From Octopus vulgaris (taxonomy: Eukaryota): a stretch of DNA of 64,000 bases. The stretch lies in the NCBI GenBank assembly GCA_951406725.2, contig OX597814.1:109802001-109866000 (forward strand), read 5' to 3'. The notes under the pieces were generated by a model, which was not told the DNA's origin, made no database searches, and was given only the letters and a program-made list of their open reading frames with translations. Shown here in pieces: positions 45,394-49,698 of this stretch (position 1 is its first letter; each line of letters begins with the position of its first letter). Both the position numbers and the translations under genes were made by a program.

Positions 45394-45804
45394 CTGCAAA
45401 CAGATAAGAACAGAATAAACTACAATGAAAATATAGTCTTCTTTCACTGCAGCAGTAGTAGTAGTTGTAGTAGTAGTAGTAGGAGGAGGAGGAGGAGGAG
45501 ACATACCAGTCATAGTAGTGGTAGTCATAGTAGTAGCAATGGTAGTTGCTGTTACATAACTGCAGGTCGATTATAATTAGACAAACCTTACAGTCTTTTT
45601 ATGTGACACCGGCACAGGTGCCAGTCAGGTGGCACGGGCATCAGCCATGACTATGATGTCACTCAGCTTGACGGGTCTTCACAAGCACAGTATATCCACC
45701 CAACATTTGAAGTGTGCTTTTTACATGCCAGTTACGAGACACTGTTATTGGCTGTGACTACAGTCTCACTTGGCTACATCTATACATCCTTCGTAAAGCA
45801 TATA

Positions 45805-46359
45805 CAGGGTGGACCAAAATGATCTGACACATTTGGAGGTTTAATAAAAGCACAGAATAAGAAATAATGAAAAGAAAAATTTTATTTTCTGAATGTACAT
45901 ATAATGCCATTTTATTTCATTAGGTTTTAAAAATTAAATCAGCTAAATGCTTCCCATCATTGTCAACACACTGTTGGAGACGTTCATGAAAGCTATCGAT
46001 AACTCTATGGATCATTTCTTCTGGAATGGTTGCTATTTCTACACAAATTGCACGTTTTAATTCATCAATAGATTGAGGGCGATGACTGAATACTTTTGAT
46101 TTTAAATATCTCCACAGGAAGAAATCACATTTCACCATTCCAGAAGAAATGATGTATAGAGTTATCGATAACTTTCATGAACGTCTCCAACAGTGTGTTG
46201 ACAATGATGGGAAGCATTTAGCTGATTTAATTTTTAAAACGTAATGAAATAAAATGGCATTATATGTACATTCAGAAAATACAAATTTTCTTTTCATTAT
46301 TTCTTATTTTGTGCTTTTATTAAGCCTCCAAATGTGTCAGATCATTTTGGTCCACCCTG
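45805..46359. mobile_element. Palindromic Tc1/mariner derivative built from two 3' ends
   Basis: TA-CAGGGTGGACCAAAATG...CATTTTGGTCCACCCTG-TA; 226-bp arms (45805-46030 / 46134-46359); minus ORF CDFFLWRYLKSKVF...GKHLADLIFKT is a transposase C-terminus. Confidence 0.92.
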
Positions 46360-47021
46360 TATATGTATGTGTATACTGTTCTGTCTTGGGAGGATCATTA
46401 CGCCAATGCATTACTTCAGTTGGTTAAATATCTCATCAAATAATTGATTGTTTATTTAATGAGCTGGTTAATTGGTTGTTTGTTAATTGAAGTTCTTTTG
46501 TTAGATATTTAACCAGTTGACTTACAATAAAGAAGTGATATTGAACTGGTGCATGTGTTATCCTTATTGGCATAATGACCCTCTGAAGACAACAAGGCTG
46601 GTTTCAACACATGAATTCACATCAAGGATCTTGCAAACCAAATACAAAGATGAAGTACACGTGCACACACACACACACACACTGATTCCAGAGAAATGTG
46701 TTGTTACTGGCAGGCCATTTCACATTGGCCTCTGATGACAATATTTTTGTCTCCGAATGCAAGGATTATTTTTTTTTTCTTCAATTTCAAAAGGGGAATC
46801 TTTCCCGAAATGTAGAACTGTTAAACAACATATGTAAGATATCACAATATCTTTTCTCTTGGCGTTCATTCACTGATATCATATTAACATATTTTGCTCA
46901 ACTCCTCACCAGCATTACTCAAAGGTTTTTGCAAACTTCTCATTTTCCCAGACACACACACACACACACACACATATATCTATATATGCATACAAAATGT
47001 ATATGTGTGTGTATATATATC

Positions 47022-47337
47022 TCGTGACCACGTGATCACGTGACCGACCAGGCTATCAGATGTAGTTACACATCGCTGGTCACAATGCGCTTCACATTGT
47101 TTTAGCCTTCAAATGATGCCACCCCGCTGGCTAAGCGGGCAGGCTAACAGAAGAAAGAATGAGAGAAAGTTGTGGCGAAAGAGTACAGCAAGGATCGCCA
47201 CCACCCATTGCCAGAGCCGCATGGAGCTTTAGGTGTTTTAGCTCAATAAACACTCACAACGCCCGGTCTGGGAATCGAAACCGTGATCCTACGACCGCGA
47301 GTTCACTGCCCTAACCACTGAGTCATTGCGCCTCCAC
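47022..47337 (-). mobile_element. tRNA-derived SINE, full length
   Basis: Head GTGGAGGCGCAATGACTCAGTGGTTAGGG...GGTTTCGATTCCC; tail (TCACGTG-like)n. Confidence 0.85.
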
Positions 47338-47923
47338 GTATATATATATATATATCCTCCTCATCATCATCATATAATGTCCATGTTCCATGCTGGTATT
47401 GGTTGGATGGTTCGACAAGGATCCATTGAGTCCAAGGACTCCATTGTCTGCTTTGGCATGGTTTCTACAGCTGGATTCCTTTCCTAGTGCCAACCACTTT
47501 ACAGAGTGTATTGGGTGCTTTTTATGTGGAACCAGTACCAGTGCTTTATATGTTTCACCAGCATGAAGAAGAATGAAGAAATTCTTCCATAAAACAAATT
47601 GCAGCTTTGGCAAAACACCAGGACATTAGATCAGTTTCTTTCACCTTGCAGATCAACTTCTGTGTCTGCCAGCTACTGGACCCACAAAATCTGCAATGGA
47701 GTGGACGGAGGGAGAAGGAAAACATGAAAAGGGTCAGCTCAAGAACACTTGGAACCAGACATTCCAGAAAGACCTCAAATACACAAGAACTTGTTGGATA
47801 GAAATAGAAAGAAATGGAACCAATTGACTTTTCTGGAGACGCTAATTCTAAGAACGATCTGATAATGTCTCTTAGTTATGTCTTGTAAATTCAGTGCAAA
47901 CTTAATAAATGGTTATAATTTTA

Positions 47924-48330
47924 GAAATATTGAATTTCTAAATGCCTCAAAGAGACATGAGCGGTGGTGGAGTGATAGAGTGGTTGTATACTGTCAACAT
48001 AATGTGACAGTCCCGTAAAGGGAATTACACCACTGCTATATAGCCCTAGGAAGCATTGATGCTTCCTGTCAGCTTTGACACATTTCCTGTGTCTTTATAT
48101 TTGCGAAGGGGAGGCAATCACCCCCATCAGTTAGGCTTGCTACCCTGGACTGATGACGGGCAAGACCCAGAAACATGCATGTCTTCAGGTGCTAATCCTA
48201 GCTGGTGGAGGTGCTTACCTCCCCTTCACAAATATAAGGACACAGGAAATGTGTCAAAGCCAATAGGAAGCGTTGATGCTTCCTAGGGCTATATAGCAGT
48301 GGTGTAATTCCATTTACAGGACTGTCACGT
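47924..48330 (+). mobile_element. TSD-flanked hairpin element with apical hammerhead ribozyme
   Basis: Perfect 14-bp direct repeat TGGTTATAATTTTA at 47910-47923 and 48331-48344; inverted arms ~48001-48149 / 48184-48331. Confidence 0.8.
48144..48189 (+). ncRNA. Type I hammerhead ribozyme motif
   Basis: Stem I CCTGGA/TTCAGG, core CTGATGA (48150-56), stem II GGG-CAAGA-CCC, GAAA (48170-73), palindromic stem III ACATGCATGT, cleavage triplet GTC (cut after 48183). Confidence 0.8.
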
Positions 48331-48370
48331 TGGTTATAATTTTAATCTTGTAAATATTTTCAGTACTTAC

Positions 48371-48529
48371 TATCCGCATCAAATGCTTCAAAGGTAAATC
48401 TCTCTTCATCGAAATCAATTGTTCCGCTGTCGTCGATATCCTCAGATGCAAATGCGATCTTTATTATTTGGGGTCGAACCAAACCCTTCCAACGAGCGGT
48501 ATATTCCTCTTTACTTACTAGACCATCAG
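48371..48529 (-). CDS. EF-hand protein exon 3 (T|DGLVSKEEYTARWKGLVRPQIIKIAFASEDIDDSGTIDFDEERFTFEAFDAD)
   Basis: TTATAG acceptor, GTAAGT donor; 159 bp, phase 1 to 1, open; contains the EF loop DIDDSGTIDFDE. Confidence 0.88.
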
Positions 48530-49698
48530 CTATAATGACAAATACAGTAAATCAAAAAACATTATTCCAGAATGTCGAATGAGATTTTAGTTATTTCTTA
48601 ATGAGAACAGGTGGGATTATAGTTGCTGGTGGGGGGGGGGGGGGGGCATAGTAACAGCCATGGGGATAGGCAAAAAGAAAAAGTCATCATTGGCTAAAAA
48701 TTATTATATGTTGTCAAGAAGCTTGCTTCCCATTCATGTGGCCTCAGGTTCAATCCCATTATGCAGCACCTTGGCCAAGTATCTTCTGTAGTCACATGCC
48801 AACCAAAGATTCACGAGTGGATTTGGTAGACAGAAACTGAAAGAAGACTATTACACACATGTACATGCACGCACGCATGCACACTCACACACACATTGTA
48901 AGAGGAGGGTCCCAACTGCCATATTTTTCTAAGTCTTGTGTAATATTCTCAGATCACTAAGGCAGAAAGCTGGCAGAAATGTGGCGAAATGCTTAGCGGT
49001 ATTTCATCCATCTTTACATTCTGAGTTCAAATTCTGCTGAGGTTGACTTTGCCTTTCATCCTTTTGGGGTTGATAAATTAATTACCAGTTGCATACTGTG
49101 GTTAATCTAATCGACTGCCCCCCCCCCCCCACCACCAAATTTTGGGCCTTGTGTCTAGAGTAGAAAAGAATATTCTCAGGTCCCTCTATTTTTATTCACT
49201 CTATCTTTATTCATATACACAGTAATGTGTATGTATGTTTGTTTATAAGTAAGTATGTAGGAATGTATGAATATATATATATGCACAAGTACAAACTTGT
49301 AACCAGTTCGCATATGCTGGAGGCATATTCAAGCCCAGAAGAAAGCCATTCATTATATTTTGCCATAGAGAATAATTCTAATCAGTATTGTAAGTATGTA
49401 TGCCATTATTCAGTTTATTTCAAGATTTCTTGCCAATAGAGAAAGAGCTGGTTTCTAACCTAGATCCAAGGTTCCTTCACTAGGATTTCAAAATCAACAA
49501 CAGGGTATTTTTGTTTGTATGTATGTATGTATGTATGTATGTATGTATGTATGTATGTATGTATGTATGTATGTATGTATGTATGTATGTATGTATGTAT
49601 GTATGCATGTATGTATGTTTATGTGCAGATTTCTATGTTTTGTTTTATATATGCATTCTCATGCATATAGTTGCATATCTAGACATGCTCATATATAT

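What the first reader, a model, noticed from the sequence alone, without database searches (positions are those of the whole stretch)
47910..48344. Retroposed ~330-nt hairpin capped by a hammerhead ribozyme (retrozyme/viroid-like architecture)
Seen: a 407-bp insert between perfect 14-bp direct repeats (TGGTTATAATTTTA). About 330 bp of it is one inverted repeat, and its innermost pairs are stem I of a type I hammerhead (CCTGGA-CTGATGA-CGGGCAAGACCCA-GAAA-CATGCATG-TC-TTCAGG). Each arm holds nested mini-palindromes (GCTATATAGC 48035-44, AGGAAGCAT/ATGCTTCCT 48048-67, GACACA/TGTGTC 48077-93), so the RNA could switch between rod and branched folds. Many arm mismatches, and the stem II C-A mismatch, look like CpG decay of a once near-perfect palindrome. 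No coding signature is visible. Established: type I hammerheads with short palindromic stem III occur in Penelope-like elements and metazoan non-LTR retrozymes and can cleave as dimers; long variable TSDs are typical of target-primed reverse transcription. Inference: a non-autonomous, self-cleaving hairpin RNA element, perhaps with a rod-like circular intermediate. It differs from ordinary pseudo-LTRs because the ribozyme sits at the symmetry axis. It lies 26 bp from a splice donor of the EF-hand gene, antisense to it.
Basis: partly seen in the sequence, partly recalled or inferred. Interest (0 to 1): 0.8.

Follow-up and report, generated by a model that had tools for sequence, protein, structure and literature searches.

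The report
Retrozyme copy with inverted partner fragment
The hairpin and its hammerhead-ribozyme motif are real, but they are two truncated copies of an abundant ~355-base non-coding mobile repeat joined back to back, likely at insertion by a Penelope-type retroelement enzyme, so this is an ordinary member of a known class of animal elements rather than a viroid-like hairpin RNA.

Summary
The 14-bp target duplication, the 138-bp arms and the type I hammerhead are confirmed. The reading that the hairpin is the mobile unit is not supported. The unit is a ~355-nt non-coding monomer (364 exact hits of one 22-mer). Among 90 motif-anchored insertions, 40 are solo, 12 are partial tandems and 38 are inverted pairs with scattered junctions. 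Only 2 of 38, this one included, put the ribozyme on the axis (p=0.18). The window copy is monomer 355→143 inverted plus monomer 82→277, joined within the ribozyme's extended stem I. Hammerhead stems covary across copies (0/500 shuffles). Variable 11–17 bp duplications, two 3' end sites ~50 nt apart and the inverted 5'-truncated copy match described Penelope-like (PLE) insertions, and the unit matches metazoan non-LTR retrozymes. One mechanistic lead: 30 of 33 inverted insertions pair one tailed end with one untailed end, and either arm can carry the loop (11 vs 11). This favours priming from both target strands over the published self-priming idea. Cleavage, circles and the helper element were not shown. 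The scan had already noted such octopus elements on other DNA. Verdict: new member of a known kind, low interest.

The parts
47910..47923 (.). Left target-site duplication (13-14 bp)
   Evidence: D6; (L001, 14 bp, 0 mismatches)
47923..48135 (-). Inverted 5'-truncated copy of the monomer, positions 143-355, ending at the family's tail end
   Evidence: blastn of the family majority vs the window, 94%
47923..47974 (-). ~52-nt 'tail' (monomer 304-355), present at this end only
   Evidence: two 3' end clusters at ~294-308 and 351-355 across 90 insertions
48133..48331 (+). Second 5'-truncated copy, monomer positions ~82-277, carrying the hammerhead, without tail
   Evidence: junction sum a+b = 225
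48133..48137 (.). Inversion junction, at a short microhomology inside the monomer's extended stem I
   Evidence: side-by-side with the majority sequence and its reverse complement
48144..48189 (+). Type I hammerhead ribozyme motif with a palindromic 10-nt helix III; predicted cleavage after 48183 (not tested)
   Evidence: conservation; covariation
48331..48344 (.). Right target-site duplication
   Evidence: D6
48371..48529 (-). Neighbouring host exon with an EF-hand-like motif; the insertion lies in the next intron, hammerhead antisense to the host gene (context, not part of the element)
   Evidence: exon borders read from AG/GT in the sequence, not from RNA

Best explanation
The insert is two truncated copies of a ~355-nt non-coding, hammerhead-bearing repeat joined head to head, likely made during one insertion by a borrowed Penelope-type reverse transcriptase/endonuclease. 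Shown: the monomer, its solo, tandem and inverted forms, two 3' end sites, variable duplications and hammerhead covariation. Inferred mechanism: the endonuclease nicks both strands of an AT-rich target about 13 bp apart. Each 3' end primes reverse transcription on the element's RNA, one at the tail end (355) and one ~50-80 nt inside (277 here, ~303 typically). Both cDNAs stop early and are joined at their growing ends through short complementarity. Here that complementarity was the ribozyme's own extended stem I, which is why the hammerhead lies on the axis. The hammerhead would cut tandem transcripts into monomers as a dimer, possibly giving circles, as in mussel retrozymes; this was not tested. 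With one ribozyme, antisense to the host gene, this copy is likely inert.
For: Monomer of 355-356 nt from natural tandems (hammerhead pairs 355 nt apart in L092, L130, L157). Architectures in 90 motif-anchored insertions: 40 solo, 38 inverted, 12 tandem. Junction sums span 57-593; 2 of 38 are in stem-I register vs 2% expected, p=0.18. Arms within a copy are 92.5% alike vs 88.2% between copies, higher in 42 of 46. Outer ends cluster at two sites; 30 of 33 classifiable inverted insertions have one of each, p=7e-7; the same holds in 11 of 13 inverted insertions of a sister family (read by hand). The tailed arm reaches further 5' in 11 of 24 and the untailed arm in 11 of 24. Non-microsatellite TSDs of 11-17 bp occur in 15 of 38 inverted vs 4 of 52 other insertions, p=4e-4; TSD-like scores occur in 28 of 90 vs 28 of 300 controls. 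Junction microhomology averages 1.6 vs 0.9 nt simulated, p=0.001. The three bases after the tail end are AAT or GAT in 30 of 41, matching the 5'-ATT-3' cut of the anole PLE. That enzyme extends both strands from two start sites and is predicted to be a dimer (PMC11167929, parts 1-2 read). Inverted 5'-truncated copies with a one-sided tail are described for PLEs (PMC8557442 passages; PMC3846280 passages). Intact 781-aa RT + GIY-YIG ORFs are in the genome. Hammerhead pairs: 94.6% paired, 60 two-sided changes, 0/500 shuffles.
Against: No helper was identified. The family majority has no DNA match in 32 GIY-YIG loci; in 15 loci of an older PLE family the only full match was the query locus, with three short low-complexity hits elsewhere. 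Two-strand priming is inferred from insertion footprints only; trimming or repair after insertion could blur end patterns. Gene conversion between arms could also make arms alike. 5' ends do not pile up at the predicted cut (none starts at 130; a weak cluster at 133-139), so there is no genomic sign of cleavage. Only 2 of 90 insertions hold two hammerheads in tandem. The active hammerhead fold is ~4 kcal/mol above the predicted minimum as a monomer, stem II is short with an unusual closing mismatch, and Rfam does not recognise it. Covariation counts are not independent events, because copies are related and 8 of 46 rows were added by hand.
Confidence: 0.85

Rival explanations
1. The whole hairpin is the mobile unit: a self-cleaving rod-like RNA, perhaps circular, that is reverse-transcribed intact.
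For: The hairpin is very stable (z -20). Similarity search returns many fold-backs centred near the hammerhead. Three of them (L002, L003, L006) switch in the same 14-nt microhomology.
Against: That search selects for the query's shape. In the motif-anchored sample 52 of 90 are not inverted, and 2 of 38 inverted are in stem-I register. Junctions, outer ends and subfamily variants differ from copy to copy. Arms resemble their own partner, not the same arm of other copies. One hammerhead alone cannot cut out a unit-length circle.
Confidence: 0.04
2. Same family and helper, but the inversion arises by self-priming (snap-back) at palindromes, as proposed for rotifer Penelope elements, with the tail made by endonuclease trimming of the intermediate.
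For: PMC3846280 (passages) infers self-priming from palindromes at inverted junctions. PMC8557442 ascribes the tail to EN-mediated resolution. Junction microhomology is above chance, and several junction sums cluster (312-324) near an internal hairpin.
Against: In snap-back, the loop-bearing arm is the template and cannot be shorter at its outer end. In 11 of 24 simple inversions, this one included, it is shorter. A staggered cut of fixed polarity would put the tail always on the same arm.
Confidence: 0.2
3. The family is the 3' end (pseudo-LTR) of a still unidentified coding PLE rather than a free-standing non-autonomous unit.
For: One locus (L090) has a decayed PLE ORF upstream on the same strand. 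Genome PLEs carry related minimal hammerheads with a palindromic helix III.
Against: In tandems position 355 joins straight to position 1 with no ORF between. The longest stop-free frame of the doubled majority is 76 aa. Fourteen other copies of the L090 PLE family lack the unit and carry a different hammerhead where one was found.
Confidence: 0.08
4. An ordinary MITE or foldback DNA transposon.
For: A long inverted repeat flanked by a direct repeat.
Against: TSDs vary (11-17 bp), arms differ in length, most copies are 5'-truncated single or tandem pieces, and a covarying hammerhead is conserved.
Confidence: 0.01

Closest known systems
Metazoan non-LTR retrozymes (Cervera & de la Peña 2020, PMC7229834; Li, Clavereau & Pollet 2026, bioRxiv 10.64898/2026.07.22.740005)
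   Same: Non-coding unit of 355 nt (mussel units 350-390 bp), type I hammerhead with a palindromic helix III, GC 46%, TSD longer than 4 bp, tandem copies, co-occurrence with PLEs.
   Different: Mostly dispersed 5'-truncated monomers and inverted pairs, not arrays (2 of 90 with two hammerheads in tandem). Inverted insertions are not discussed in PMC7229834 (0 occurrences of 'inverted'); the 2026 preprint's single occurrence was not among the passages shown. Circles and cleavage were not shown here.
Insertions of endonuclease-positive Penelope-like elements (Arkhipova et al. 2013, PMC3846280; Craig et al. 2021, PMC8557442; anole PAc, Frangieh et al. 2024, PMC11167929)
   Same: 5' truncation, partial tandems, an inverted 5'-truncated copy at the 5' end, a tail at one end, variable TSD, AT-rich or (TA)n targets, ATT-type junction, a hammerhead in the repeat.
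   Different: No ORF. The tail is ~52 nt rather than 30-40 nt. No sequence link to a coding PLE was found.
PLE minimal hammerheads (Cervera & de la Peña 2014, PMC4209133)
   Same: [quoted passage not shown]
   Different: A 6-bp helix I extended imperfectly to ~50 bp (predicted fold), a short helix II, and a further unpaired base before GAAA.
Viroids and viroid-like rod-shaped circular RNAs (recalled; no paper read on them)
   Same: A hammerhead within a highly paired RNA.
   Different: The rod exists only as a genomic by-product in a minority of copies; the ribozyme is on one strand only; there is no evidence of RNA replication.

Membership tests
Metazoan non-LTR retrozyme | Short non-coding unit of about 150-450 nt | tested here: met
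   355-356 nt; longest stop-free frame 76 aa
Metazoan non-LTR retrozyme | Type I hammerhead in each unit | tested here: met
   core conserved; covariation 0/500 shuffles on 46 rows; not recognised by Rfam
Metazoan non-LTR retrozyme | Tandem copies with two or more hammerheads | tested here: met
   L092, L130, L157 at 355-nt spacing; rare (2 of 90); the window copy itself has one
Metazoan non-LTR retrozyme | No LTR; TSD longer than 4 bp when present; GC below 50% | tested here: met
   TSD 11-17 bp; GC 46%; no terminal direct repeats in the unit
Metazoan non-LTR retrozyme | Self-cleavage and circular RNA in tissue | not testable with these tools
   only assembled contigs were available
PLE-mobilised (non-autonomous) insertion | 5' truncation, partial tandems, inverted 5'-truncated copy | tested here: met
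   40 solo, 12 tandem, 38 inverted of 90
PLE-mobilised (non-autonomous) insertion | Optional 3' tail at one end (two RT start sites) | tested here: met
   ends at ~294-308 and 351-355; 30 of 33 inverted have one of each
PLE-mobilised (non-autonomous) insertion | Shared terminal or pLTR sequence with a coding PLE | tested here: inconclusive
   no match in 32 GIY-YIG loci or in 14 other loci of an older PLE; only a small sample of 6,136 first-look candidates was seen
Autonomous Penelope-like element | ORF with RT and GIY-YIG domains | tested here: not met
   no ORF in the unit; it is inserted like a PLE but is not one
Viroid-like rod RNA element | The rod is the conserved, propagating unit | tested here: not met
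MITE / foldback DNA transposon | Fixed termini and a fixed short TSD | tested here: not met

The most novel reading that the evidence does not exclude
Penelope-type integration makes its inverted repeats by twin priming: a dimeric RT-endonuclease extends both nicked target strands on the same RNA, one subunit from the tail end and one ~50 nt inside, and the two cDNAs are joined by microhomology. Snap-back self-priming is not the route. The many short retrozyme insertions of this genome are a ready, large-sample record of that reaction: one tailed and one untailed end in 30 of 33, clean TSDs mainly in inverted copies, and either arm loop-bearing.
Probability: 0.5. Interest if true: 0.45.

Novelty: new member of a known kind. 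Interest (0 to 1): 0.2.

Why it matters
As an element it is ordinary. It adds a likely cephalopod family to the non-LTR retrozymes and supports their proposed dependence on PLEs through the insertion footprint, not only through ribozyme similarity. The one wider point is mechanistic: how PLEs make their tandem and inverted ends is called open in PMC8557442, and the end-pairing statistics here give a testable prediction for the existing in vitro PLE system. Locally, a 138-bp intronic duplex near a splice donor could be an RNA-editing substrate or affect splicing; nothing here tests that.

Tried and rejected
Rfam scans of 47000-49300 and 48125-48215 found no hammerhead family. Helper search: two motif hits 2.9 kb apart (L135) are a local duplication containing a LINE-type RT fragment, not a PLE. 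The abundant 781-aa PLE has its own U3-A8 hammerhead and no DNA similarity to the family. PLE remnants next to L057 and L090 read as older elements that the family landed in or beside. The first family accession tried for PLEs was not in the library. Supplement File S1 of PMC8557442 holds metadata only, so Hydra-1_Obim and Naiad sequences could not be compared. Enrichment of 5' ends at the predicted cut was not seen. Enrichment of stem-I-register junctions was not significant. ADAR-type hyperediting was absent: no piece with 8 or more A>G or T>C changes among the 90 insertions, and the window copy has 1 A>G per arm. Runs: no RNA holder listed. Contigs of guessed-RNA runs carry family pieces but cannot show ends, strand or circles. 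No empty-site joint was among the 15 joints shown (50 more not shown); contigs cross the left junction in X20 and the right junction in X18. Paper searches listed no description of this family in octopus and no paper applying twin priming to Penelope; subscription journals and Repbase/Dfam were not searchable, so this is not proof of absence.

Full report
Observation. Rfam does not score the motif, so its identity rests on family conservation and covariation.

Family. The insert has 3,769 first-look candidates in the 2.8-Gb genome, of which 40 were scored. A 34-nt core motif occurs exactly 48 times and a 22-nt arm motif 364 times, with 0 control matches. At a median 91.5% identity to the majority, that suggests a few thousand copies; this is a rough inference. 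Natural tandems define a 355-356-nt monomer: ~95 nt upstream, the hammerhead, the 'arm', and a 52-nt tail. In the predicted fold, helix I extends imperfectly over ~50 bp, positions ~41-183.

What the window copy is. It is monomer 355→143 on the minus strand followed by monomer ~82→277 on the plus strand, joined at a short microhomology within the extended helix I. The long arms are a duplication of monomer 143-277, and the nested palindromes are the monomer's own hairpins.

The hairpin is not the unit. I took 94 of the first 100 listed motif hits (of 364; six on C6 not fetched). They give 90 insertions after merging three pairs that lie in one insertion and dropping one local duplicate; the window copy is among them. 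Of these, 40 are solo, 12 partial tandems and 38 inverted. Junction sums range from 57 to 593, and 2 of 38 (L001, the window itself, and L002) are in helix-I register against 2% expected, p=0.18. The many axis-centred hairpins reflect selection by similarity, and even those switch at different points. In 46 hairpins the arms are more like each other than like other copies (92.5% vs 88.2%; 42 of 46), and 128 of 266 non-CpG private variants are shared by both arms vs 35 expected. Gene conversion could add to this.

Penelope-type footprint. Outer 3' ends cluster at ~294-308 and 351-355, with a minor group near 277. Non-inverted insertions end at the inner site in 38 of 52. Of 38 inverted ones, 33 are classifiable (5 have an end outside both classes) and 30 have one end of each type, p=7e-7. 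Non-microsatellite TSDs of 11-17 bp occur in 15 of 38 inverted vs 4 of 52 other insertions. The overall TSD score beats flank-swapped controls (28/90 vs 28/300). The bases after the tail are AAT or GAT in 30 of 41. PMC8557442 (passages) and PMC3846280 (passages) describe this layout for PLEs: partial tandems, an inverted 5'-truncated copy and a tail at one end. PMC11167929 (parts 1-2 of 4) shows a PLE protein cutting at ATT, extending both strands and starting at two sites that define the tail.

Mechanism (inferred). Snap-back priming requires the loop-bearing arm to be at least as long at its outer end. Among 24 simple inversions with one tail, the tailed arm reaches further 5' in 11, the untailed arm in 11, and 2 are ties. 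The window copy is of the kind that snap-back cannot make without an extra step. Priming from both target strands fits the end pairing, the TSD enrichment, the shared variants (one RNA copied twice) and the modest junction microhomology (mean 1.6 nt in 28 gap-free junctions vs 0.9 simulated; ungapped mapping, 10 junctions with gaps left out). A sister family shows the same pairing in 11 of 13 inverted insertions (read by hand). I put the family assignment at ~0.85-0.9 and this specific mechanism at ~0.5.

Ribozyme. On 46 distinct instances (38 motif-anchored, the window, and 7 picked for diversity, including 3 from related repeats), 94.6% of cells pair, with 60 two-sided changes and 0/500 shuffles as high; slid controls reach at most 46.5% paired. 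Related copies inflate these counts. Helix III is palindromic in 108 of 125 contexts, in five different palindromes (that set includes copies chosen by the exact core pattern), the signature of dimer cleavage described in PMC4209133 (parts 1-2 of 4). The stem II mismatch is ancestral. The active fold is ~4 kcal/mol above the minimum as a monomer. No 5' end starts at the predicted cut, and no RNA-end data were available. Activity is therefore predicted, not shown.

Helper. The genome holds many intact 781-aa RT + GIY-YIG ORFs with a U3-A8 minimal hammerhead, but they share no DNA similarity with this family. The helper remains unidentified.

Comparison. The unit meets the tested features of metazoan non-LTR retrozymes (PMC7229834, passages and section 14; bioRxiv 2026.07.22.740005, part 1 of 5 and passages; its supplements were not seen and may list related families). 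Its insertions work like those of PLEs, but it is not a coding PLE. Earlier notes of this scan (unchecked AI notes) reached the same classification for other octopus loci; I reached it before reading them. Verdict: new member of a known kind, interest 0.2.

Noticed in passing
L219-L244 (e.g. tandem trimer L241:463-1293): A sister retrozyme family: ~362-366-nt unit, 227/375 identical to this one by global alignment (score 255 vs shuffled maximum 120), with a U3-A8 hammerhead core, the same tail end and the same two 3' end sites. A degenerate pattern gave 464 matches, mostly this family among those listed.
   Followed up: partly
L008:1930-2490 and L041:4401-4551: More diverged (71-74%) relatives with a canonical core and the same tail end, also in tandem and inverted layout.
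   Followed up: no
L207:1745-4090 and many other loci: A likely young PLE family with intact 781-aa RT + GIY-YIG ORFs, a ~4.8-kb unit, an upstream 330-480-aa open frame without Pfam match in the one copy scanned, and a U3-A8 minimal hammerhead in the pLTR.
   Followed up: partly
window 47923-48331: Against the family majority, both arms of this copy show mostly G>A in element sense (15 G>A vs 4 C>T), whereas the family as a whole is balanced. Small numbers; unexplained.
   Followed up: partly
monomer positions 133-139 and 166-185 (motif-anchored sample): 5' truncations are somewhat denser just after helix I and at the outer end of the extended helix, which would fit RT stalling at structure. 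Post hoc and weak.
   Followed up: partly
window 48001-48331 vs exon 48371-48529 (-): A 138-bp intronic duplex begins ~40 nt from a splice donor; it is a possible A-to-I editing substrate in the host pre-mRNA.
   Followed up: no
window 45797-46362: A separate ~560-bp element with long terminal inverted repeats between TA dinucleotides, Tc1/mariner-like in appearance (read by eye; label recalled).
   Followed up: no
L135:1737-5150: A 2,887-bp local tandem duplication that copied one inverted insertion together with a LINE-type RT fragment.
   Followed up: yes
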